IMG/VR virus record: IMGVR_UViG_3300031857_016701
Location: 1-64,000 of that record
Source of the DNA: a virus
Lineage: Duplodnaviria > Heunggongvirae > Uroviricota > Caudoviricetes
Length of the DNA stretch: 64,000 nucleotides
Strand: one strand, 5' to 3'
A program made the position numbers and the translations under genes. Positions 9,416 to 17,816 of this stretch are shown here, piece by piece (within the stretch, counting starts at the first letter, position 1; each line of letters starts with the position of its first letter). The notes below the pieces were generated by a model that was not told the DNA's origin, ran no database searches, and saw only the letters and a list, made by a program, of their open reading frames with translations.

Positions 9416-9949
9416 ATGAATGTTTTGGATCATTTGAAGAGTTCGTCAGTTGACGATATTAAGTCCTATTGTAAGTCCACTTCCATTAACGCAGGTGTCG
9501 CAATGATGCATGTTAATGGTGACTTTAATCTATCTACTCTTGTTCGTAACGCCAATTTCTTTGGTTTTAAGGAAGCATTTTATGTAGGTGGTAGCAAGCA
9601 ATGGGATCGTCGTGGTACTGTTGGTACTCATCACTATACTGACTTAAAACATATTAAGACTGAAGAAGACTTTGTTACTTATATTAAGGATAATAATTAT
9701 ACACTAATTGCTGTAGAAAACAATATTCCCAAGTATAGTGACAAGACTGTATCTATCTTCAATCAATGGGTATTTACTGGTGTTGATAAGCCAATGTTTG
9801 TGTTTGGCGAAGAAAAGAGTGGATTGAGCGATTATATTCTTGACAACGCAGAATTTATCGTAACCATTCCAGCTTTTGGAAGCGTTCGTTCACTGAATGT
9901 TGGCACCACCAGCGGAATCGTGATGGCACATTACAGAAATAATTTTTGA
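9416..9949 (+). CDS. SpoU/TrmH-family (SPOUT) RNA 2'-O-methyltransferase
   Basis: SPOUT motifs: NxxxxxRxAxxFG (NLSTLVRNANFFG), FVFGEEKSGLS, SLNVGTTSGIVM. Confidence 0.6.
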   Translation: MNVLDHLKSSSVDDIKSYCKSTSINAGVAMMHVNGDFNLSTLVRNANFFGFKEAFYVGGSKQWDRRGTVGTHHYTDLKHIKTEEDFVTYIKDNNYTLIAVENNIPKYSDKTVSIFNQWVFTGVDKPMFVFGEEKSGLSDYILDNAEFIVTIPAFGSVRSLNVGTTSGIVMAHYRNNF

Positions 9950-10063: not shown

Positions 10064-11020
10064 ATGAAAGAAAAAGTTACAAAGGCTACTGATGTAGCTG
10101 TAATCGTTGGTCGTTTCCAGGTTAATGAACTCCATGAAGCTCATATTGACCTAATCACTTCAGTTCTGAATAAACATGACCGTGTGCTTTTGTTCTTGGG
10201 AAATAGCACTATCCGTAATACACTCAACAATCCTCTTGATTATCGTGCAAGACGTACAATGATTGCTGATAAGTTCCCCACAGTAGAGATTCATTATATC
10301 AATGATAATCCTTCTGATACTGCATGGACCAAGAATCTTGATAAGTTGATTGGTGAACAGTTGTTGCCAATGCAGACTGTTACACTATATGGTTCCCGTG
10401 ATAGTTTCTTGAAGTGTTATACTGGTAAGTACACTACTTGTGAGCTAGAAGCAACCACTTTTATTAGTGGTACAGAAGTTCGTCGTCGTGTATGTAACAA
10501 TTATCCTCCCACTGCAGATTATAGGGCTGGTATGATTGCTGCTACTGCATATCGTTTTCCTACAGCATTTCAGACTGTTGATATTGCTGTTGTAAATGAT
10601 AAGGGTGAACTGCTTTTGGCTCGTAAACCAGAAGAAAAGAAGTGGCGGTTTATTGGTGGATTTAGTGATCCTGCTTCTGTTTCTCTTGAAGAAGATGCTA
10701 AACGGGAAGTACAGGAAGAAGCTGGTGTAGAAGTTGGTAATATCACTTATCTTGGTTCTACACTTATCAATGACTGGCGTTACCGTGGAGAAATTGATAA
10801 GATTAAGACTGCATTGTTTGTTGCCAAGTATGTATTTGGCAAACCGGAGGGTGCAGATGATGTTGCAGAAGTGAAGTGGGTATCTATTAACAATTTGACT
10901 AAAAATGATATTGTTGAAACCCACCATGTTCTGATTGATATGTTCAATGAAAAGTTTGGAGCCAACCGGGAACTTCAGGAAAAGTTCTTCAAGCCAAATT
11001 TTGATGGAAAAATGCCTTGA
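10064..11020 (+). CDS. natV: bifunctional NMN adenylyltransferase / Nudix ADP-ribose pyrophosphatase (NatV/NadM-Nudix type)
   Basis: N-terminal nucleotidyltransferase with a GRFQ...H...H (HxGH-type) motif. C-terminal Nudix box (GGFSDPASVSLEEDAKREVQEEAGV). Confidence 0.75.
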   Translation: MKEKVTKATDVAVIVGRFQVNELHEAHIDLITSVLNKHDRVLLFLGNSTIRNTLNNPLDYRARRTMIADKFPTVEIHYINDNPSDTAWTKNLDKLIGEQLLPMQTVTLYGSRDSFLKCYTGKYTTCELEATTFISGTEVRRRVCNNYPPTADYRAGMIAATAYRFPTAFQTVDIAVVNDKGELLLARKPEEKKWRFIGGFSDPASVSLEEDAKREVQEEAGVEVGNITYLGSTLINDWRYRGEIDKIKTALFVAKYVFGKPEGADDVAEVKWVSINNLTKNDIVETHHVLIDMFNEKFGANRELQEKFFKPNFDGKMP

Positions 11021-11097: not shown

Positions 11098-12495
11098 ATG
11101 AATAAAAACATTTGTTTGACTACGGATTCTTATAAGTTGAATCATTGGAATCAATATCCCAAGGGCACAGAAAAGGTTTATAGTTACTTTGAATGCCGTA
11201 AGGGATCTAAGTTTGCTGAAACTCCTTTCTTTGGACTTCAGTATATTATTAAGAACCACCTTGAAGGTGTTGTTGTGACCCGTCAGAAGATTGAGAATGC
11301 TGCTAAGGTGTGTAAGGCACATTTTGGTGATGAAAAGTATTTCAACCGTGAAGGTTGGGAATATGTTCTTAACAATTATGAAGGCAAGTTGCCTGTTGTT
11401 ATCAAGGCAGTTGAAGAAGGAACTGTTGTTCCTATCAACAATGTGCTTATGACTATTGAAAATACTGGCGGTGAAAAGACTGCTTGGTTGACCAATTTCC
11501 TTGAAACTATTTTGTCACAGGTTTGGTATCCTATTACAGTTGCTGCTTTGTCCCGTGAAGTGAAGGTTAATATCAAGGAATATCTTGATTTGACCAGTGA
11601 TGGTGGATTGCTTAACTTTGGTCTTCATGACTTTGGTTTCCGTGGAGCTAGCTCTTGGGAATCTGCTGGTATCGGGGGGGCTGCCCACTTGATTAACTTC
11701 TTGGGAACTGATACTGTTGTTGCTATGGAAGTGGCAATGAATTACTATAACGCTAATCTTGACGGTTTGGCATATAGTGTTGCTGCTACTGAACACTCTG
11801 TTATGACCGCACTTGGTAAGAATGGTGAAGAACAGGTTGTTGAGAATCTGTTGAATGAGTATCCTACTGGTATTCTGTCTGTTGTATCTGACAGCTATGA
11901 TATCTACAACTTTGTTGACAATATTGTTGGAAACAAGTTTAAGGTCCGTATTCTTGCCCGTGATGGTGTATTTGTAGTTCGTCCGGATTCTATTACTCCT
12001 ACTCACCCAACTCCTGAAGCAGAAATGGTTTGGATTATGCATAGTCTTTGGGATAACTTTGGTGGCACTATTAACAGCAAGGGTTATTGTGTTATCAATC
12101 CAAAGGTTCGTGTTCTTTGGGGTGACGGAATTGATATTGAAGGAATCAAGAAGATTCTGTATGCTGTTACCAAGGCTGGATTTGCAACTGAGAACATTGC
12201 TTGTTTTGGTATGGGTGGTGGATTGTTGCAGAAGGTTAACCGTGATACTCAGCGTTGTGCTTTTAAGTGTAGTGCTCAGTATCGTGATGGTCAGTGGTAT
12301 GACATTCAGAAGAATCCCAAGGATGTTTCCAAGGTTTCTAAGAAGGGTATTCTCAAGTTGATTAAGGTTGATGGTGAATTTGTTACTGTCAATGAAAATG
12401 AACCGGGAGAAGATTATTTGAAGGTTGTTTTTGAGAATGGTGTACTTGTCAAGGAAATTGATTTTGATACCGTTCGTAAAAATGCCGCTTTGTAA
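11098..12495 (+). CDS. nadV: nicotinamide phosphoribosyltransferase (NAMPT/NadV family; may act as a Namat-type enzyme)
   Basis: 465 aa with strong NAMPT-family similarity throughout (GLHDFGFRG, GTDT). Adjacent to the NMNAT gene. Confidence 0.8.
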   Translation: MNKNICLTTDSYKLNHWNQYPKGTEKVYSYFECRKGSKFAETPFFGLQYIIKNHLEGVVVTRQKIENAAKVCKAHFGDEKYFNREGWEYVLNNYEGKLPVVIKAVEEGTVVPINNVLMTIENTGGEKTAWLTNFLETILSQVWYPITVAALSREVKVNIKEYLDLTSDGGLLNFGLHDFGFRGASSWESAGIGGAAHLINFLGTDTVVAMEVAMNYYNANLDGLAYSVAATEHSVMTALGKNGEEQVVENLLNEYPTGILSVVSDSYDIYNFVDNIVGNKFKVRILARDGVFVVRPDSITPTHPTPEAEMVWIMHSLWDNFGGTINSKGYCVINPKVRVLWGDGIDIEGIKKILYAVTKAGFATENIACFGMGGGLLQKVNRDTQRCAFKCSAQYRDGQWYDIQKNPKDVSKVSKKGILKLIKVDGEFVTVNENEPGEDYLKVVFENGVLVKEIDFDTVRKNAAL

Positions 12496-12542
12496 TTGAC
12501 AACAAAAAGGTTTACGGTTATCCTTTAAAACCGTTTTTATTT

Positions 12543-12998
12543 ATGATTACAAATATTGATATAAACATTTTTGATTGTGACGCACACGGTATTATTCATC
12601 AAGCCAATTGTCAAAATACCATGCAAAGTGGTATTGCCAGACAAATTAGGGACAAGTATCCGGAGGCATATGAAGCAGATTGTAAAACAGTTGCGGGTGA
12701 TATTAAAAAACTGGGTACATTCAGTTGGGTAAAGACACATGATGATAAGTATATCTACAATTGTTATAGCCAATTTAGGTATGGAAAAGAACAACGTCAT
12801 ACAAATTATGAAGCAATTTATACTGGGTTGTCATCCATTAAAGACCACGCAAGCAGTATTGAGTTGACTTCTTTAAGTTTGCCATATAATATGGGATGCG
12901 CATTGGGTGGAGGGTCTTGGAATATTGTCAGAGCTATAATTCAAGATGTTTTTTATGATTCTGATATCAACCTTTTCATCTGCAAATATAACCCCTAA
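12543..12998 (+). CDS. macro-domain protein (ADP-ribose binding/processing)
   Basis: Macro signatures IIHQANCQNTMQSGIARQI and PYNMGCALGGGSWNIV (Gly-rich ADPR loop). Size 151 aa. Confidence 0.65.
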   Translation: MITNIDINIFDCDAHGIIHQANCQNTMQSGIARQIRDKYPEAYEADCKTVAGDIKKLGTFSWVKTHDDKYIYNCYSQFRYGKEQRHTNYEAIYTGLSSIKDHASSIELTSLSLPYNMGCALGGGSWNIVRAIIQDVFYDSDINLFICKYNP

Positions 12999-13001
12999 TT
13001 T

Positions 13002-13964
13002 ATGAAGACTATCAAGTTATTTTCAGGAACCAGTAATCTACCATTGGCACAGAAGATTTCACAAAATCTGAATGAACCTCTTGGTAAGATTTATCACCAC
13101 AAGTTTCCAAGTGGTGAAACCTATTGTCAATTCAAGGAAAATATCCGTGGCAGTGATGTATTTTTGATTCAAGGTATTACCAATCCAGCAAATGAAAACT
13201 TGATGGAATTGCTTGTAATGTCAGATGCTGCTAGACGGGCTAGTGCAGAACGTATTACTGCGGTAATTCCTTATTTTGGTTATGCTCGTCAAGACCGTAA
13301 GGATAAGAGCCGTGTTCCTATTACTGCTCGTCTTGTAATGGATTTGATTGCTACTGCTGGTATTGATAGGGTGGTGACTATGGATTTGCATAGTCCACAA
13401 GTGGGTGGATTTACTAATCTGCCATTTGATCATCTTACATTTGAACCAGTATTGAGTGAATATTTTAGGACCAAGTATCATTCATTAGATTTTAGGGATA
13501 ATGTTGTATTGATGGCACCGGATGTTGGTGCGGTTAAACGAGTGGAAAAGTATGCGGACTTGTTAAAGTGTGATTTTGGTTTTATCAGTAAGAAGCGTGT
13601 AAGTGATACCAAGGTAGAACTACAAAATGTTGTGGGCAATGTAAAAGATAAACATGTAGTTATTGTTGATGACCTCACTGAAAGTCTGGGAACAATGGTT
13701 CAAGCAGCAAAAGAATGTAAGAAACAAGGTGCTGTCAAAGTAACTTGTTCAGTAACTCATGGTTGTTTGACGGAGACAGGTATTCATAGATTGGCAGAGT
13801 CTATCAATGTAATTGATGAATTTATTCATAGTAATACAACAAATACATGGGGTAGTATTGGATTTAAGCCATCTAATGTTACTGAATTGGATGTAAGCAA
13901 CTTATTTGCTAAGGCTATTCGTAGTATCAACAAGAATGAAAGTGTAAGTGAATTATTCGTATGA
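13002..13964 (+). CDS. prs: ribose-phosphate pyrophosphokinase (Prs) homologue. The ribose-5-P loop is diverged, so it may be an ADP-ribose pyrophosphokinase (Adps-like).
   Basis: Near full-length colinearity with Prs (NLMELLVMSDAARRASAERITAVIPYFGYARQDRK, DLHSPQVGGF). The canonical DDxIDTGGT loop reads DDLTESLGT. Confidence 0.75.
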   Translation: MKTIKLFSGTSNLPLAQKISQNLNEPLGKIYHHKFPSGETYCQFKENIRGSDVFLIQGITNPANENLMELLVMSDAARRASAERITAVIPYFGYARQDRKDKSRVPITARLVMDLIATAGIDRVVTMDLHSPQVGGFTNLPFDHLTFEPVLSEYFRTKYHSLDFRDNVVLMAPDVGAVKRVEKYADLLKCDFGFISKKRVSDTKVELQNVVGNVKDKHVVIVDDLTESLGTMVQAAKECKKQGAVKVTCSVTHGCLTETGIHRLAESINVIDEFIHSNTTNTWGSIGFKPSNVTELDVSNLFAKAIRSINKNESVSELFV

Positions 13965-14491
13965 AATATATTGAAGCTCCTACTAAGTATAAAAATAAAC
14001 CAGGTATACCCTCTCTATTTTTAGGAGGTGGAATTAGTTCATGCAAAGATTGGCAATCCAAGTTGGTTGAAAAGTTGACGGATTATAATGTTACTATTTA
14101 TAATCCCCGTCGTAACGACTTTGATATCAACAATCCAAAAGCTAGTGAAGAACAAATCAAGTGGGAACATAAGTATCTACATGATGTAAATATTCTAGTG
14201 TTTTACTTTGCAGAAGAAACACTATGTCCAATTACATTGTTTGAATTGGGTGCTGCATTGGAACGAAACACTTATGCTACAATCAAACAAGATATTTTGG
14301 TATATTGTGAACCAGAGTATAAACGTAAGTTTGATGTAGAACTACAAATCAAGCTTGCAGTGAAAAATGCTAATCAACTATCTAAAAATAATGATGTTGC
14401 AGATGATTTGTGTGTATCATTTCATGATGATTATAGTGATTTTGTAGATGAATTGAAAGCAATTGTTGATATTGCTCAAGTTTATGTTTAA
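13961..14491 (+). CDS. nucleoside 2-deoxyribosyltransferase / DNPH1 (Rcl)-like N-glycosidase family protein
   Basis: FLGGGISS matches the YFxGxIxGG phosphate-binding motif. FELGAAL matches the catalytic YELG Glu motif of DNPH1/NDT. Size 176 aa. Confidence 0.5.
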   Translation: MKYIEAPTKYKNKPGIPSLFLGGGISSCKDWQSKLVEKLTDYNVTIYNPRRNDFDINNPKASEEQIKWEHKYLHDVNILVFYFAEETLCPITLFELGAALERNTYATIKQDILVYCEPEYKRKFDVELQIKLAVKNANQLSKNNDVADDLCVSFHDDYSDFVDELKAIVDIAQVYV

Positions 14492-14852: not shown

Positions 14853-15269
14853 ATGGAAAAACTAAATCGTAAAGGGTTTTTCTCCACCCTATTTGGAGGA
14901 ATCGCAGGTGTTGTTGCTGGTTCAACTGTTAAAGCATCAGAACCTATTGTACCAACACCACCAGTTGAAAATGTTGTTACTTGTGACAAATTGATATTCA
15001 CAACTAGTGATGGTGCTAGTTGTGTAATGCAGTTTAGAGACAATGATAACTTTGAAATACGTGTAAATAATAGTGAGAATATTTCAATCAATATTTGTTC
15101 ACCACTAAATAAACCAACTACAATCAAAGCAGAATCTTCACCAAACTCATATGAGTATAGACAACACTCATTTTATAATGAACCACGACAACGATTGGTA
15201 ATTGCTTCAAATGGTAATATTGGATTGGGCACTCATACTCCTACAGCAAAACTTGATATTTGTGGTTGA
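14853..15269 (+). CDS. hypothetical exported protein with an RK-FF / Gly-rich hydrophobic N-terminus
   Basis: NRKGFFSTLFGGIAGVVAGS leader. Confidence 0.3.
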   Translation: MEKLNRKGFFSTLFGGIAGVVAGSTVKASEPIVPTPPVENVVTCDKLIFTTSDGASCVMQFRDNDNFEIRVNNSENISINICSPLNKPTTIKAESSPNSYEYRQHSFYNEPRQRLVIASNGNIGLGTHTPTAKLDICG

Positions 15270-15519
15270 TAAGAATCATTGTTGTTATATAGTTATTTGT
15301 GGGGACAACACCCTCTATTGTGGTTATAGTAATGATGTTGAAAAACGAATTAGTAACCATAATAGGGGGTGTGGTGCTAAATATACTAAGACACGATTAC
15401 CAGTTAGATTAGTATATACAGAATGTTTTGATAGTAAGAGTGAAGCAATGAAGAGAGAGTATCAAATCAAACAATTGACCCGTCAACAAAAGTTAAAACT
15501 AATAAGTGAAAAACAATAA
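15202..15519 (+). CDS. small GIY-YIG nuclease (UPF0213/YhbQ-like). True start uncertain; a GTG at 15262 would remove the overlap.
   Basis: CYIVICGDNTLYCGYSNDVEKRISNHN is a GIY-YIG core, with a downstream conserved E (KSEAMKRE). Confidence 0.5.
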   Translation: MLQMVILDWALILLQQNLIFVVDKNHCCYIVICGDNTLYCGYSNDVEKRISNHNRGCGAKYTKTRLPVRLVYTECFDSKSEAMKREYQIKQLTRQQKLKLISEKQ

Positions 15520-16006
15520 AGCATTTACATTAATAGAATTGGTATTAGCCATAACCATATTGCTTGGTATTATTGGTGCAATTGTTATTAACTATGATAG
15601 TTTGGTGGGCAATACCAGATATTTTGAAGCTAGAGAAAACTTAAAGACACTATTGATTAATCTCAAACATCAATCAGCATTTCAACAAAAGGAATTTGAA
15701 CTTACATTTGATGAAAATTATAATATGTACAGTACATTTGACGATTTCTATTTATTGGATGCTGTCACAAATGACTTGAAGATACTTGAATCAAGTTCTA
15801 CCAAAATTGTGTTTTTTCTTGACGGAAGCGTACAAGAGAGTTATATTGTTACTAGCAACTTGGAGGGAACCATCACCAACAAATTTATTATTAATGTTAT
15901 TGGTGGGGTAAATTACGAGGGTACAACAAATATTGTTTTAGAAAAAAATGAATCTAATTTACAAACAGACCAACAACCAGAAGTTCCACGTATTGACTCC
16001 GAATAA
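15506..16006 (+). CDS. type IV pilin / pseudopilin-like protein with a class III (prepilin) signal
   Basis: N-terminus MKNNKA-FTLIELVLAITILLGIIGAIV: a basic leader, Phe+1, Glu+5, then a hydrophobic helix. Size 166 aa. Confidence 0.6.
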   Translation: MKNNKAFTLIELVLAITILLGIIGAIVINYDSLVGNTRYFEARENLKTLLINLKHQSAFQQKEFELTFDENYNMYSTFDDFYLLDAVTNDLKILESSSTKIVFFLDGSVQESYIVTSNLEGTITNKFIINVIGGVNYEGTTNIVLEKNESNLQTDQQPEVPRIDSE

Positions 16007-16028
16007 TCATTTAGTTGGTGAACTTATT

Positions 16029-16184
16029 ATGGATGTTGACGGTTATTTCTATTTTTGGCCAAGTAACGATGGTTGCTGGCCGTCACATATAATGCGTTCT
16101 ATTGCTAACAAGTTGGATGATATCAACAAGCCTTGGAATGATGAAGTCACTGAATATTTCGATAAAGAAAAGATTATACTATGA
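16029..16184 (+). CDS. hypothetical small protein (start trimmed to MDVDGYF)
   Basis: ORF. The track version starts at 15948 and overlaps the pilin-like gene. Confidence 0.25.
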   Translation: MDVDGYFYFWPSNDGCWPSHIMRSIANKLDDINKPWNDEVTEYFDKEKIIL

Positions 16185-16672
16185 AAGCGATTATTGCGAT
16201 GGCAGAAAATAGGGTTATAGGCAAGAATGGTGGATTGCCATGGCCAAGTATCAAGGAGGATTTTAAGCACTTTAAAGAATTTACAATGGGTAATACACTT
16301 ATTGTGGGTAAAAATACATTTGATACATTACCACTTCTAAAAAATAGAGAATGTCTTGTACTAGTCAAAGAAGACAAAATAATGGCAGCGAATCCAAATC
16401 AATATCTAGTAAACAATAATTCTATGACGGGTAAACTGATTACGATGACAGATATTGAATCTTATAGTCAATTTAGAAAAGACTATTTGATTGTTGCTGG
16501 TGGTGCTAAAACTTATATTAATTTGTTACCATACATTACAGAGTTTTATGTTACGCATGTAAATGGTAAATATGATGGTGATACATTTATGCCACCATTT
16601 GAAGATTTGTTTACACATAAAGAAGTTGTAAAAGAATTTGACCTACACAAAGTTATAATGTATACTAAATGA
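16181..16672 (+). CDS. folA: dihydrofolate reductase
   Basis: MKAIIAMAENRVIGKNGGLPW N-terminal DHFR signature. Size 163 aa. Immediately upstream of thymidylate synthase. Confidence 0.8.
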   Translation: MKAIIAMAENRVIGKNGGLPWPSIKEDFKHFKEFTMGNTLIVGKNTFDTLPLLKNRECLVLVKEDKIMAANPNQYLVNNNSMTGKLITMTDIESYSQFRKDYLIVAGGAKTYINLLPYITEFYVTHVNGKYDGDTFMPPFEDLFTHKEVVKEFDLHKVIMYTK

Positions 16673-16673
16673 T

Positions 16674-17816
16674 ATGAATAGTTACGAAGAACAATATATC
16701 AATCTACTTTCAGAAATCTACAACGGGGGCACTTATTCCAAAAATAGAACCGGAATAAACACTCGTAAAATTTGGGGGGCTCAAATTCATGTAGATTTAT
16801 TGCATGAAGGATTTCCTCTACTTACCACAAAGAAAATGCACTGGAAGAGTGTAGTGCATGAACTATTGTGGATGATTAAAGGAGATACTAACATTCAGTA
16901 TCTTCTAAAGAATGGTGTTACATTCTGGACAGAATGGCCCTATCAAAAGTATCTTAACCATTGCAAAACACTCACTGAACCCGATTATGATGTTCATATC
17001 GAGGATCTTGAAAAAAATTGTGTGCGTGAAATGACACAAAAAGAATTTGAACAAGAAATCATCAATAACGATGAATTTGCCAAAAAGTGGGGTAGCATTG
17101 GACAATATGGTTATGGTGGAATGTGGAGAAACTTTCCACATCGTATTAACCCAATTGGTCAAAATAATGGTGATCACATGATCGTCAAAGGGTGGTCTGT
17201 TGAAACCGTGGATCAACTTAAAAATGCAATTAATGAACTAAACACTAATCCAGATAGTCGCCGGATTATCATCACTGCATGGCATCCGTATCATAGTAAT
17301 AACCGAGAAGATGCTCTATTGCCAGCCTGTCACAATTATATTCAGTTTGGTACTGAAGAATTGACACTAGAAGAAAGATTTAATATTTTTTCAAATGGAT
17401 GGAATGTAGAAGAATCAAAAAATGAGTGGAATAAAAATGGATTTACAGATTATGATTCCCTTCTTACAGATCATTATATTCCAAAATATCGTTTGAATTG
17501 TTACTTTAATATGAGAAGTAATGATGTACCACTTGGTTTACCATACAACATCGCTTTTTATGCTCTATTTACTCACTTGATGGCTCATTGTTTAAATATG
17601 ATTCCAAGTCAATTAGTTTATAGTGGTGCTGATGTTCATATCTATGAAAACCAACAAGAAGGAATTGTAGAACAATTGACTAGAACTCCCGGTAAATTGC
17701 CTAAGTTAGTTCTTAAACCAGGATGTCCTACCAATTTGTTTGATATTAAGTTTGACCACATTGATATTGTGGACTATAATCCTCAATCACACATTAAAAT
17801 GCCTGTAGCAGTATGA
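16674..17816 (+). CDS. thyA: thymidylate synthase (ThyA family) carrying two large insertions (380 aa)
   Basis: RTGINTRKIWG...FPLLTTKK...HELLWMIKGDTN. Active-site LPACH Cys. RSNDVPLGLPYNIAFYAL, with Asn at the dUMP-specificity position. Confidence 0.7.
   Translation: MNSYEEQYINLLSEIYNGGTYSKNRTGINTRKIWGAQIHVDLLHEGFPLLTTKKMHWKSVVHELLWMIKGDTNIQYLLKNGVTFWTEWPYQKYLNHCKTLTEPDYDVHIEDLEKNCVREMTQKEFEQEIINNDEFAKKWGSIGQYGYGGMWRNFPHRINPIGQNNGDHMIVKGWSVETVDQLKNAINELNTNPDSRRIIITAWHPYHSNNREDALLPACHNYIQFGTEELTLEERFNIFSNGWNVEESKNEWNKNGFTDYDSLLTDHYIPKYRLNCYFNMRSNDVPLGLPYNIAFYALFTHLMAHCLNMIPSQLVYSGADVHIYENQQEGIVEQLTRTPGKLPKLVLKPGCPTNLFDIKFDHIDIVDYNPQSHIKMPVAV

What the first reader, a model, noticed from the sequence alone, without database searches (positions are those of the whole stretch)
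12543..12998. Stand-alone macro-domain protein embedded between NAMPT and Prs-like genes
Macro domains bind or hydrolyse ADP-ribose derivatives. Known activities include O-acetyl-ADPR deacetylation, ADPR-1''-phosphate phosphatase, and removal of ADP-ribose from protein or DNA (as the DarG antitoxin does). Placed inside an NAD-recycling island, it could do either of two things.
- It could funnel ADPR derivatives back to free ADPR. These would be products of SIR2 or TIR NADases, or gcADPR-like signals.
- It could reverse DarT-type DNA ADP-ribosylation.

The second would be a separate counter-defence activity.
Basis: inference. Interest (0 to 1): 0.55.

Follow-up and report, generated by a model that had tools for sequence, protein, structure and literature searches.

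The report
Phage macro-domain ADP-ribose hydrolase gene
This is a real, probably active, small macro-domain enzyme of a very common phage family whose tested members strip either a phosphate or DNA from ADP-ribose to defeat bacterial immunity, and its place between two NAD-salvage genes is recent and changeable, so it is a fairly ordinary new member of a known kind.

Summary
The ORF at 12543-12998 (+), 151 aa, is a real stand-alone macro domain (Pfam Macro above threshold; AlphaFold pLDDT 95.8; nearest folds TARG1, DarG, Poa1p). It belongs to a huge family of about 150-aa phage proteins (phrog_335; homologues in 2,744 of 50,697 phage records).

Two members have been tested. T4 Tk.4/AdfM counters DarTG2. 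Vibrio phage Gary Adpp is an ADPR-1''-phosphate phosphatase that counters RES NADases. The window protein keeps the family's conserved residues: H19 (= Adpp H24, essential), N22 (= DarG N22) and Q77 in place of the TARG1/DarG lysine, as in both T4 AdfM and Adpp.

Its neighbours are a canonical NAMPT, a canonical Prs and a NadM-type NMNAT-Nudix. That is NARP2 plus Prs, not NARP1.

The position is labile. Orthologues at 70-74% identity lie 5-7 kb away, or next to Gad2. The NAMPT-Prs junction carries unrelated cargo in relatives.

Phylogeny cannot separate the two activities. My best reading is a hydrolase acting at C1'' of ADP-ribose that releases free ADPR. Here it most likely works as an Adpp-type phosphatase feeding Nudix, Prs, NAMPT and NMNAT. 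An AdfM-type anti-DarT2 role is nearly as likely, and both may hold.

The parts
12543..12998 (+). Stand-alone macro-domain protein, 151 aa, of the phage Tk.4/AdfM-Adpp family (phrog_335). Conserved residues include H19, N22, G30, D46, N73, Q77, Y89, G123-G124 and W126.
   Evidence: ORF and sequence. Pfam, PHROG and PADLOC hits. AlphaFold model pLDDT 95.8. Foldseek hits to TARG1, DarG and Poa1p. Residue conservation across 144 representatives.
12496..12542 (+). Intergenic element downstream of NAMPT. It has a promoter-like TTGACA (12496-12501), a 17-nt spacer and TATCCT (12519-12524). It also has a 6-bp hairpin, 12514-12519 pairing with 12529-12534, followed by a T run. The same element precedes Prs directly in relatives that have no macro gene here.
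   Evidence: Promoter scan. Sequence comparison with L019 and L009, which shows one compensatory A-T to G-C change. The hairpin energy is no better than shuffled sequence. This is weak evidence.
11098..12495 (+). Canonical nicotinamide phosphoribosyltransferase (Nampt/NadV type, not Namat).
   Evidence: Pfam NAMPT_N + NAPRTase. NCBIfam PRK09198 at 544 bits against a cut-off of 405. Human NAMPT structures score 407-416 bits, against 230-250 bits for three more distant chains (9w5x, 9w5w, 9ke8) also deposited as NAMPT. 41% identity to the KVP40-type NAMPT of Vibrio phage V09 and 29% to a NARP1 Namat.
13002..13964 (+). Canonical class-I ribose-phosphate pyrophosphokinase (Prs, not Adps). Its start codon lies 3 nt after the macro stop codon.
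   Evidence: NCBIfam PRK01259 at 354 bits against 297, and TIGR01251 at 339 bits. Solved Prs structures score 230-255 bits over the full length. Adps-clade phage proteins reach only 25-30% identity over partial length.
10064..11020 (+). Bifunctional NadM-type NMN adenylyltransferase with a C-terminal Nudix domain, the likely ADP-ribose pyrophosphatase. Together with NAMPT it forms the NARP2-type core.
   Evidence: Pfam NUDIX. NCBIfam hits to bifunctional NMNAT/Nudix models, all far below their cut-offs. Weak PDB hits to 2qjt and 2qjo, NadM-Nudix enzymes. Phage homologues are annotated as NadM / ADP-ribose pyrophosphatase. The Nudix box REVQEEAGV and the motifs GRFQ...HEAH and ISGTEVR can be read directly in the translation.
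13961..14491 (+). Nucleoside 2-deoxyribosyltransferase-like (PF15891) gene. It overlaps the Prs stop codon and travels with Prs in most relatives. Its function is untested.
   Evidence: Pfam PF15891, E=9e-21. Synteny in L009-L011, L018-L022, L101 and L106-L114.

Best explanation
The gene encodes a catalytically competent member of the widespread phage stand-alone macro family that includes T4 Tk.4/AdfM and the NARP1-associated Adpp. These enzymes bind ADP-ribose and hydrolyse whatever is attached to the C1'' of its distal ribose, releasing free ADPR.

In this T4-like phage the gene sits in one compact, same-strand array:
- NadM-Nudix
- NAMPT
- a promoter-like intergenic element
- the macro gene
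- Prs, starting after a 3-nt gap
- an NDT-like gene

I commit to this working model:
1. The macro enzyme acts as an Adpp-type ADPR-1''-phosphate phosphatase. It turns the product of RES-type NAD+ phosphorolysis into ADPR.
2. The Nudix domain splits ADPR into AMP and ribose-5-phosphate.
3. Prs makes PRPP.
4. NAMPT makes NMN from PRPP and nicotinamide.
5. The NMNAT domain remakes NAD+.

What is shown: fold, family membership, conservation of the active-site residues, the identities of the neighbours and the gene order.

What is inferred: the substrate, and every step of the coupling to the neighbours.

The same enzyme may also remove DarT2-type ADP-ribose from thymine in phage ssDNA.

My confidence that it is an active C1''-directed ADP-ribose hydrolase of this family is about 0.85. 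My confidence that ADPR-1''P recycling is its main role here is about 0.4, and that is the figure given below.
For: Family and catalytic competence:
- Pfam, PHROG and PADLOC hits.
- Model pLDDT 95.8, with TARG1, DarG and Poa1p as the nearest folds.
- All family-invariant residues are present. Across 144 representatives the frequencies are H19 91%, N22 99%, D46 94%, Q77 99%, Y89 99% and G123/G124 94-96%.

Link to Adpp:
- 33% identity, E=3e-23, to the biochemically tested Gary Adpp.
- 30-40% identity to eight other NARP1-linked macro proteins from Table S1 of that paper, and 28% to a ninth, phage phi 3.
- Adpp H24A abolishes the anti-aRES effect, and the equivalent H19 is conserved here.
- 15% of NARP1 operons carry a gene for a Macro-domain protein. 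The NARP1-linked members in my tree fall in several separate groups rather than one. This suggests that the phosphatase activity is generic to the family.
- One relative, P0134, is fused to DUF4326. Iyer et al. 2022 predict that DUF4326 removes terminal phosphates from ADPr derivatives (PMC9503650).

Context:
- The genes are on the same strand, with 3 nt between the macro stop and the Prs start.
- The order NAMPT-macro-Prs recurs in L009-L011 (macro 83% identical) and in L101. In L101 the macro is 85% identical while NAMPT is only 46% identical, so the arrangement has outlasted strong NAMPT divergence.
- The neighbours supply every enzyme needed to take ADPR to NAD+.
- There is precedent for accessory enzymes, placed inside NAD+ reconstitution operons, that convert ADPR derivatives into linear ADPR: Adpp and RyDEP.
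Against: - The position is not conserved. Orthologues at 71-74% identity lie 5-7 kb downstream of a directly adjacent NAMPT-Prs pair, after two glycosyltransferase genes (L018-L022, L012/L013). Others lie in regions with no NAMPT or Prs within 8 kb (L005, L024). Those at 70-72% identity overlap the start of an anti-Gabija Gad2-like gene (L014-L017, L102-L104).
- Only 6 of 80 IMG/VR loci with family members have NAMPT or Prs within 8 kb.
- None of 14 loci with a closely related NAMPT (79-93% identity) has the macro gene in the NAMPT-Prs slot. That slot is empty or holds a Pth2-like gene, a homing endonuclease or NADAR. Adjacency could therefore be a chance insertion into a hyperplastic junction.
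- NARP2 already overcomes aRES without a phosphatase, because it uses PRPP rather than ADPR.
- The only tested family member from a T4-like phage, T4 Tk.4, is an anti-DarTG2 factor.
- Phylogeny does not place the window protein nearer to Adpp than to AdfM. The deep nodes have bootstrap support below 50%.
- Both key papers are preprints.
Confidence: 0.4

Rival explanations
1. AdfM-type counter-defence. The enzyme acts on its own to remove DarT2-type ADP-ribose from thymine bases in phage single-stranded DNA, as proposed for T4 Tk.4. Its place between NAMPT and Prs is then an accident of gene shuffling in a hyperplastic region. This does not exclude the best explanation, because one enzyme could do both.
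For: - T4 tk.4 is the single hit that sensitises T4 to DarTG2. It belongs to the same family: 28% identity, E=7e-20, with the same H, N and Q residues.
- The window phage is T4-like, with a gp43-type polymerase and clamp loader.
- The DarG profile hits are the strongest defence-related matches, and DarG macro domains are among the top fold matches.
- Most family members are not next to NAD genes.
- Close orthologues sit beside other anti-defence genes. Gad2 or a Gad2-like gene follows the macro in L014-L017, L102-L104, L025, L052 and L069.
- NADAR, the domain of the anti-DarT1 factor AdfN, lies within 8 kb in 7 of 80 loci. It occupies the same NAMPT-Prs slot in L116 and L119.
- The stand-alone TARG1-like macro SCO6735 also hydrolyses thymine-linked ADPr.
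Against: - The catalytic lysine of DarG (K80), PhiKZ AdfM (K78) and TARG1 (K84) is a glutamine (Q77) here and in 99% of the family.
- De-ADP-ribosylation of DNA has been shown biochemically only for the lysine-containing PhiKZ AdfM. That protein is only 25% identical, E=1e-7, and branches apart from the rest of the family in the NJ tree, though that split has only 54% bootstrap support.
- For T4 Tk.4 the mechanism is inferred from genetics and fold.
- There is no NADAR or other recognisable anti-DarT gene in the window.
- The tight coupling to Prs is left unexplained.
Confidence: 0.35
2. A general de-MARylating or deacylating macro enzyme. It would remove ADP-ribose from host or phage proteins or from RNA ends, or deacetylate O-acetyl-ADPR made by sirtuins, as TARG1 and MacroD-type enzymes do.
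For: - TARG1 is the best match by both sequence and fold.
- JGI annotates several homologues as 'O-acetyl-ADP-ribose deacetylase'.
- T4-like phages encode ADP-ribosyltransferases, and macro domains can act on many 1''- or 2''-linked substrates (PMC9503650).
Against: - The TARG1 catalytic dyad K84/D125 is replaced by Q77/G122.
- The sequence shows no MacroD-type motifs, by inspection of the loops MQSGIA and GCALGGGSW.
- The JGI names are automatic labels.
- No family member has been shown to have these activities.
Confidence: 0.1
3. A hydrolase or sponge for cyclic ADPR-type immune signals (1''-2' or 1''-3' gcADPR from Thoeris TIR proteins). It would end the signalling and yield ADPR for recycling.
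For: - The glycosidic bonds of gcADPR involve C1'', the position this family attacks.
- Iyer et al. 2022 predicted that some macro domains target cADPR.
- RyDEP shows that such an enzyme can sit in a NAD+ reconstitution operon.
Against: - The RyDEP study states that no enzyme was previously known to cleave these signals.
- No member of this family has such activity on record.
Confidence: 0.05

Closest known systems
Adpp, the ADPR-1''-phosphate phosphatase of the NARP1-AP operon (Vibrio phage Gary KNV71_gp137; Osterman et al., bioRxiv 10.64898/2026.01.28.702374)
   Same: - The same family of about 150-aa stand-alone macro proteins.
- 33% identity, E=3e-23.
- The same motifs: HQxNC, GxGIA, xAD, KLG, NxYxQ and GCxLxGGxW.
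- The essential His (H24 in Adpp, H19 here) is conserved.
- It lies inside a NAD+ rebuilding gene cluster.
   Different: - The neighbours here are a canonical NAMPT and Prs plus NadM-Nudix, which is NARP2-type. They are not Adps and Namat.
- ADPR would therefore have to be broken down to ribose-5-phosphate rather than pyrophosphorylated directly.
- NARP2 does not need the phosphatase to beat aRES.
- The activity has not been tested for this protein.
T4 Tk.4 / AdfM, an anti-DarTG2 factor (HIDEN-SEQ preprint, bioRxiv 10.1101/2025.11.20.689424)
   Same: - The same family: 28% identity, E=7e-20.
- The same H, N and Q residues.
- A stand-alone protein of about 155 aa in a T4-like phage.
- It sits among small accessory genes.
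   Different: - T4 has no NAD-salvage genes next to tk.4.
- The T4 phenotype is genetic and the substrate is inferred.
- Phylogeny does not group the window protein specifically with Tk.4.
DarG2 antitoxin macrodomain and the chimallivirus AdfM (PhiKZ gp104; PMC13309987)
   Same: - Macro fold with TM about 0.82 to DarG.
- N22 is equivalent to DarG N22 and PhiKZ N23.
- The glycine-rich loop GCxxGG is shared.
   Different: - There is no catalytic lysine: DarG K80 and PhiKZ K78 correspond to Q77 here.
- There is no C-terminal DarT-binding domain. NCBIfam DarG scores 49.7 bits against a cut-off of 250.
- Identity to PhiKZ gp104 is only 25%.
Human TARG1/OARD1 and Streptomyces SCO6735 (ALC1/TARG1-like macro class)
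   Same: - The best solved-structure match by sequence (E=4e-7) and by fold (E=1e-12).
- A similar size of about 150 aa.
- The His corresponding to H19 is present in TARG1 (H32).
   Different: - TARG1 K84 and D125 align with Q77 and G122.
- TARG1 is a cellular protein or nucleic-acid de-ADP-ribosylase, not a phage gene.
Yeast Poa1p, an ADP-ribose-1''-phosphate phosphatase (PDB 6LFQ)
   Same: - Fold TM 0.81.
- The H-x-x-N-C motif is shared. A Poa1p H23A mutant structure is deposited (PDB 6lfs). Placing H23 opposite window H19 relies on my recollection of the Poa1p sequence.
- It is the reference enzyme for the reaction proposed here.
   Different: - Sequence similarity is marginal (E about 0.3-0.6).
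- By the same recollected alignment, Poa1p S30 and F152 correspond to T26 and G122 here.
- Poa1p works in tRNA-splicing by-product clearance, not in conflict with viruses.

Membership tests
Macro domain (Pfam PF01661) | A score above the Pfam gathering threshold over the whole domain, and a macro fold. | tested here: met
   32.3 bits against 22, covering profile positions 2-117 of 118. Model pLDDT 95.8. Among the 50 best Foldseek hits all natural proteins are macro domains; the remainder are de novo designed serine hydrolases.
Phage Tk.4/AdfM-Adpp family (phrog_335) | A significant full-length match to the family profile and to its tested members. | tested here: met
   phrog_335 E=7e-44. Gary Adpp E=3e-23. 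T4 Tk.4 E=7e-20. phi92 gp185, annotated 'Tk.4-like', E=9e-35.
Phage Tk.4/AdfM-Adpp family (phrog_335) | The family signature residues: H19, N22, G30, D46, N73, Q77, Y89, G123-G124 and W126. | tested here: met
   All are present in the window protein. Each is conserved in 91-99% of 144 representatives clustered at 50% identity.
Adpp (NARP1-AP ADPR-1''P phosphatase) | The essential histidine (H24 in Gary Adpp). | tested here: met
   The H24A mutant is listed in the paper's construct table, and mutations in the macro protein abolish the anti-aRES effect. H24 aligns with window H19.
Adpp (NARP1-AP ADPR-1''P phosphatase) | Encoded within or within two genes of an Adps-Namat (NARP1) operon. | tested here: not met
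   The neighbours are a canonical NAMPT and a canonical Prs. The only window matches to the Adps and Namat queries are weak ones (25% and 29% identity) that fall on those two genes themselves.
Adpp (NARP1-AP ADPR-1''P phosphatase) | Hydrolysis of ADPR-1''-phosphate to ADPR. | not testable with these tools
   This needs an enzyme assay.
DarG type II antitoxin (NCBIfam NF048014) | A full-length match above the cut-off, that is, a macro domain plus a C-terminal DarT-binding domain. | tested here: not met
   49.7 bits against a cut-off of 250. Only profile positions 7-144 of 338 match. The protein is 151 aa.
DarG2-like macro hydrolase (DarG, PhiKZ AdfM) | The active-site Asn (N22/N23) and Lys (K80/K78). 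| tested here: inconclusive
   The Asn is present (N22). The Lys is replaced by Q77. T4 Tk.4, which counters DarTG2 genetically, also has Gln at this position, so the Lys may not be required in this family.
TARG1/OARD1 | The catalytic dyad Lys84 and Asp125. | tested here: not met
   In the phmmer alignment K84 aligns with Q77 and D125 with G122. The residue numbering follows my count of the TARG1 sequence.
NARP2 (the context of the gene) | A Nampt that matches canonical NAMPT better than Namat, together with an Nmnat in the same phage. | tested here: met
   NAMPT. An adjacent NadM-type NMNAT-Nudix. Substrate preference was not tested.
NARP1 (the context of the gene) | An Adps-clade Prs homologue next to a Namat. 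| tested here: not met
   The Prs scores above the canonical Prs cut-offs and is only 25% identical to an Adps. The NAMPT is only 29% identical to a Namat.

The most novel reading that the evidence does not exclude
Two linked claims make up the most novel reading that the evidence allows.

1. The macro gene is the entry point of an undescribed closed-loop extension of NARP2. ADPR-1''-phosphate or ADPR would go to ribose-5-phosphate through the macro enzyme and the Nudix domain. Prs would convert that to PRPP, NAMPT to NMN, and NMNAT to NAD+. This would make NARP2 independent of host PRPP and able to recycle the debris left by both classical and RES-type NADases.

2. The Gln-type phage macro family is bifunctional. 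One small enzyme would defeat both RES-type NAD+ phosphorolysis and DarT2 DNA ADP-ribosylation.
Probability: 0.2. Interest if true: 0.6.

Novelty: new member of a known kind. Interest (0 to 1): 0.35.

Why it matters
Phage macro proteins are very common. Iyer et al. 2022 found them in 41% of myoviruses, and this particular family is in 2,744 of 50,697 phage records. Only two members of the family have a tested function, and those functions differ: anti-RES phosphatase and anti-DarT2.

This window shows a member captured in a NARP2-plus-Prs cluster. I found that arrangement in none of the papers I could search. If the coupling is real, it adds a salvage route from ADPR derivatives to NAD+ through PRPP.

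The comparative data also carry a caution. Gene position in the hyperplastic regions of T4-like phages is labile, so guilt by association from a single genome can mislead.

The useful open question raised here can be tested directly: is one Gln-type macro enzyme both an ADPR-1''P phosphatase and a DNA de-ADP-ribosylase?

Tried and rejected
- NARP1-AP operon. I asked whether NAMPT/macro/Prs is really Namat/Adpp/Adps. Rejected: both neighbours score as canonical enzymes and are only 25-29% identical to an Adps and a Namat.
- Phylogenetic assignment to Adpp or AdfM. An NJ tree with 300 bootstraps on 30 sequences leaves the deep nodes at 5-54% support. T4 AdfM is not separated from the NARP1-linked macros, so no assignment is possible. 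A first attempt with Biopython timed out.
- Net charge and pI as a hint of DNA binding. Uninformative: both DNA-acting AdfMs are acidic.
- A repeated promoter/stem-loop cassette that might explain the gene's mobility. The intergenic element has no second copy in the window, and its hairpin is no more stable than shuffled sequence.
- Near-identical DNA in known phages. None found.
- KVP40-type and megaphage NAMPT loci. No macro or Prs gene nearby.
- ICP1 AdfB as a relative. Rejected: it is a 77-aa DarT binder, not a macro domain.
- Domain fusions among longer homologues. Only one informative case, DUF4326+Macro.
- The odd-looking ribose-5-phosphate loop of Prs (DDLTESLGT). The best solved Prs has an equally divergent loop (DDEISTAGS), so I dropped the point.
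Full report

Yes. An ATG-to-TAA ORF lies at exactly 12543-12998 on the + strand and encodes 151 aa.

- It passes the Pfam Macro threshold: PF01661, 32.3 bits against 22, over almost the whole profile.
- It matches phrog_335 at E=7e-44.
- It matches the macro half of the DarG profiles: PADLOC E=8e-18, NCBIfam E=3e-13.
- An AlphaFold2 model built on 71 homologues has mean pLDDT 95.8 and pTM 0.90.
- Its best Foldseek matches in the PDB are TARG1 (E=1e-12, TM 0.81-0.88), the DarG macrodomains of Thermus aquaticus and Mycobacterium tuberculosis (TM 0.82-0.83) and yeast Poa1p (TM 0.81).
- The word-indexed search found 141 homologues.
- The exhaustive search found 7,495 cluster representatives at E<=1e-3. 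Nearly all are single-domain proteins of 150-170 aa.

**2. What are the neighbours?**

- 11098-12495 is a canonical NAMPT. NCBIfam PRK09198 gives 544 bits against a cut-off of 405. Human NAMPT structures score 407-416 bits, against 230-250 bits for three more distant chains (9w5x, 9w5w, 9ke8) also deposited as NAMPT. It is 41% identical to the KVP40-type enzyme of Vibrio phage V09 and 29% to a NARP1 Namat.
- 13002-13964 is a canonical class-I Prs. PRK01259 gives 354 bits against 297. Solved Prs structures score 230-255 bits over the full length. It is only about 25% identical, over partial length, to the Adps clade.
- 10064-11020 is a NadM-type NMN adenylyltransferase fused to a Nudix domain.
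- 13961-14491 is a nucleoside 2-deoxyribosyltransferase-like protein (PF15891) that overlaps the Prs stop codon.

In the terms of Osterman et al. (bioRxiv 10.1101/2024.02.11.579819), this is a NARP2-type pair (Nampt + Nmnat) with an added Prs. It is not NARP1.

The window as a whole comes from an uncultured T4-like myovirus. It has a gp43-type DNA polymerase, a clamp loader and many glycosyltransferases. It is distantly related to Flavobacterium phage immuto and Microcystis phage Mel-JY01.

**3. Which macro subfamily?**

The protein belongs to a very large family of phage stand-alone macro proteins. Homologues occur in 2,744 of 50,697 phage records. One is phi92 gp185, annotated 'Tk.4-like' and 43% identical. 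Two members have a tested function.

- *T4 Tk.4.* The HIDEN-SEQ preprint renamed it AdfM. It is the single T4 gene whose loss sensitises the phage to DarTG2. The window protein is 28% identical to it, E=7e-20.
- *Adpp of Vibrio phage Gary.* This macro protein is encoded between Adps and Namat. The purified protein converts ADPR-1''-phosphate, the product of RES-domain NAD+ phosphorolysis, into ADPR. The extended NARP1 pathway then overcomes aRES defence. The window protein is 33% identical to it, E=3e-23. It is 30-40% identical to eight other NARP1-linked macros listed in that paper's Table S1, and 28% to a ninth, phage phi 3.

The lysine-containing DarG2-like AdfM of PhiKZ removes ADP-ribose from DNA in vitro (PMC13309987). 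It is much more distant, at 25% identity and E=1e-7. It branches apart from the rest of the family in the NJ tree, though that split has only 54% bootstrap support.

**4. Active-site residues**

Across 144 representatives clustered at 50% identity, the family signature is:

| Residue (window numbering) | Conserved in |
|---|---|
| H19 | 91% |
| N22 | 99% |
| G30 | 99% |
| D46 | 94% |
| N73 | 97% |
| Q77 | 99% |
| Y89 | 99% |
| G123 / G124 | 94% / 96% |
| W126 | 92% |

The window protein has every one of them.

- H19 aligns with Adpp H24. The H24A mutant abolishes the anti-aRES effect.
- N22 aligns with DarG N22 and PhiKZ AdfM N23.
- The catalytic lysine of TARG1 (K84), DarG (K80) and PhiKZ AdfM (K78) is a glutamine here (Q77). 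TARG1 D125 aligns with G122.
- The same glutamine is found in both T4 AdfM and Gary Adpp. It therefore defines the family and does not separate the two activities.

**5. Can phylogeny decide between the two activities?**

No. In a neighbour-joining analysis with 300 bootstraps:

- The window protein groups firmly only with its close relatives: 97% with P0005, and 71% for the clade down to about 67% identity.
- All deeper nodes have 5-54% support.
- T4 AdfM is not separated from the NARP1-linked macros. Its nearest neighbour, with 43% support, is the NARP1-linked macro of Acinetobacter phage phiAbaA1.
- The NARP1-linked members fall in several separate groups.

This pattern fits a family whose members share one chemistry, hydrolysis at C1'' of ADP-ribose, and are recruited to different contexts. 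It does not prove that.

**6. How much does the position between NAMPT and Prs mean?**

Points in favour of a functional link:

- The array is compact and on one strand.
- Only 3 nt separate the macro stop from the Prs start.
- The order NAMPT-macro-Prs recurs in three ENA contigs where the macro is 83% identical (L009-L011).
- It recurs in a Logan contig (L101) where the macro is 85% and Prs 73% identical but NAMPT only 46% identical.

Points against:

- Orthologues at 71-74% identity lie 5-7 kb downstream of a NAMPT-Prs pair that is directly adjacent, with about 50 nt between the genes. They follow two glycosyltransferase genes (L018-L022, L012/L013).
- Others lie in regions with no NAMPT or Prs within 8 kb (L005, L024).
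- Orthologues at 70-72% identity overlap the start of an anti-Gabija Gad2-like gene (L014-L017, L102-L104).
- Of 80 IMG/VR loci with family members, only 6 have NAMPT or Prs within 8 kb. Seven have a NADAR gene and four a Gad2-like gene. None has Adps or Namat.
- Starting from NAMPT, none of 14 loci with a NAMPT 79-93% identical has the macro gene in the NAMPT-Prs slot. The slot is empty, or holds a Pth2-like ORF plus a 77-aa ORF, a GIY-YIG endonuclease, or NADAR with other genes.

The 47-nt element after NAMPT has a promoter-like TTGACA-17-TATCCT and a short hairpin. It is conserved, and it precedes Prs directly in L019 but the macro gene in the window and in L009. So the macro ORF lies precisely between that element and the Prs start codon.

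The junction is therefore a hyperplastic slot, and adjacency alone is weak evidence of function.

**7. Mechanism**

What is shown:

- The fold and the family.
- Conservation of the catalytic residues.
- The identity and order of the neighbouring genes.

What follows from homologues:

- The enzyme cleaves a group from C1'' of ADP-ribose and releases ADPR.

What I infer, at about 0.4:

1. Here the enzyme serves as an Adpp-type ADPR-1''P phosphatase.
2. Its product is split by the Nudix domain into AMP and ribose-5-phosphate.
3. Prs turns that into PRPP.
4. NAMPT joins PRPP to nicotinamide to give NMN.
5. The NMNAT domain adenylylates NMN to NAD+.

[quoted passage not shown] The two are compatible if the enzyme is bifunctional.

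Minor rivals are protein or RNA de-ADP-ribosylation or OAADPR deacetylation (0.1) and gcADPR cleavage or sequestration (0.05). The last is disfavoured because the only reported 2'/3'cADPR-cleaving activity, among lysates of cells infected with 72 phages, came from an unrelated RyR-domain protein (PMC13232231).

One point against the need for Adpp here: NARP2 by itself already overcomes aRES.

**8. Comparison with what is known, and novelty**

The protein is a new member of a known family. It is not a DarG antitoxin: it scores 49.7 bits against a cut-off of 250, and it has no DarT-binding domain and no catalytic lysine. It lacks the TARG1 catalytic dyad.

Its context meets the criteria for NARP2, not NARP1. 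I found no description of a macro gene inside a NARP2-plus-Prs cluster in the searchable literature. That absence is limited to the library I could search.

Iyer et al. 2022 had already predicted that phage Macro, NADAR, Nudix and DUF4326 domains divide the work of processing soluble ADPr derivatives, including ADPr-1''P (PMC9503650). One relative, P0134, is a DUF4326-Macro fusion. Macro domains are present in 41% of myoviruses, so finding one here is not surprising in itself.

**9. Verdict**

Both proposed activities are the documented ones in this family. The positional argument is weak, and the choice between them needs an assay.
- Interest is moderate to low, at 0.35. The one idea worth testing is that a single Gln-type macro enzyme defeats both RES-type NAD+ phosphorolysis and DarT2, and that here it closes a loop from ADPR through PRPP to NAD+.

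Both key functional papers, on Adpp and on T4 AdfM, are preprints.

Noticed in passing
window 12496-13001; L106-L119 between NAMPT and Prs: The NAMPT-Prs junction is a variable slot. In 14 loci with a NAMPT 79-93% identical, it is empty (about 50 nt) in some. In others it holds a Pth2-like ORF of 124-140 aa plus a 77-aa ORF, a GIY-YIG homing endonuclease, or NADAR with a radical-SAM-like gene and others. The macro gene fills it only in the window, L009-L011 and L101.
   Followed up: yes
window 12496-12542; L019 1189-1238; L009 5955-6000: The intergenic element after NAMPT is conserved. It has a promoter-like TTGACA-17-TATCCT and a 6-bp hairpin (12514-12519 pairing with 12529-12534) followed by a T run. 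L009 carries one compensatory change, GCGGTT/AACCGC. The hairpin is no more stable than shuffled sequence, and there is no second copy in the window.
   Followed up: partly
window 13961-14491: The nucleoside 2-deoxyribosyltransferase-like gene (PF15891, 'DrHyd' type) overlaps the Prs stop codon. It stays downstream of Prs in most related loci and persists in L005/L024, where Prs is absent. It may act on an N-glycosidic bond of a nucleotide or an NAD-derived molecule. Its function is unknown.
   Followed up: partly
L014-L017 and L102-L104 (macro stop overlaps the next start); L025, L052, L069: In phages whose macro is 70-72% identical, the gene is translationally coupled to a Gad2-like gene (PF26128, anti-Gabija). 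More distant loci also have a Gad2-like gene just downstream. This suggests that the macro gene often sits in anti-defence clusters.
   Followed up: partly
L005/L024 1956-2480; L029; L116 10145-10669; L119 8977-9504: NADAR genes, the domain of the anti-DarT1 factor AdfN, lie within 8 kb of the macro gene in 7 of 80 loci. In two relatives NADAR lies between NAMPT and Prs, the same slot the macro gene occupies in the window. The window itself has no NADAR.
   Followed up: partly
protein P0134 (259 aa): This is a DUF4326 + Macro fusion among the family representatives. Iyer et al. 2022 predict that DUF4326 (rhodanese-phosphatase superfamily) removes terminal phosphates from ADPr derivatives.
   Followed up: partly
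L117 10949-11875: A 308-aa ORF with an SGGxDS motif, resembling NAD+ synthetase (NadE), lies about 2.5 kb downstream of NAMPT in a relative that has no Prs within the 7 kb of downstream sequence retrieved. This identification is by eye only.
   Followed up: no
L101 1-1092: In this contig the NAMPT upstream of macro-Prs is only 46% identical to the window's NAMPT, while the macro is 85% and Prs 73% identical. Either NAMPT was replaced or it diverged much faster than its neighbours.
   Followed up: no
window 15948-16184: A 78-aa ORF with the motif DVDGYFYFWP looks homologous to the 77-aa ORF found in the NAMPT-Prs slot of L110, L113 and L114. This is another sign of small genes moving around within this region. 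The comparison is by eye only.
   Followed up: no
window 9416-9949, 15202-15519, 16181-17816: Other accessory genes around the island: a SpoU-type RNA methyltransferase just upstream of the NMNAT-Nudix gene; downstream, an ORF at 15202-15519 that reads like a GIY-YIG nuclease, and ORFs at 16181-16672 and 16674-17816 that read like dihydrofolate reductase and a long thymidylate synthase. Only the SpoU gene was checked against Pfam; the rest is by eye.
   Followed up: no
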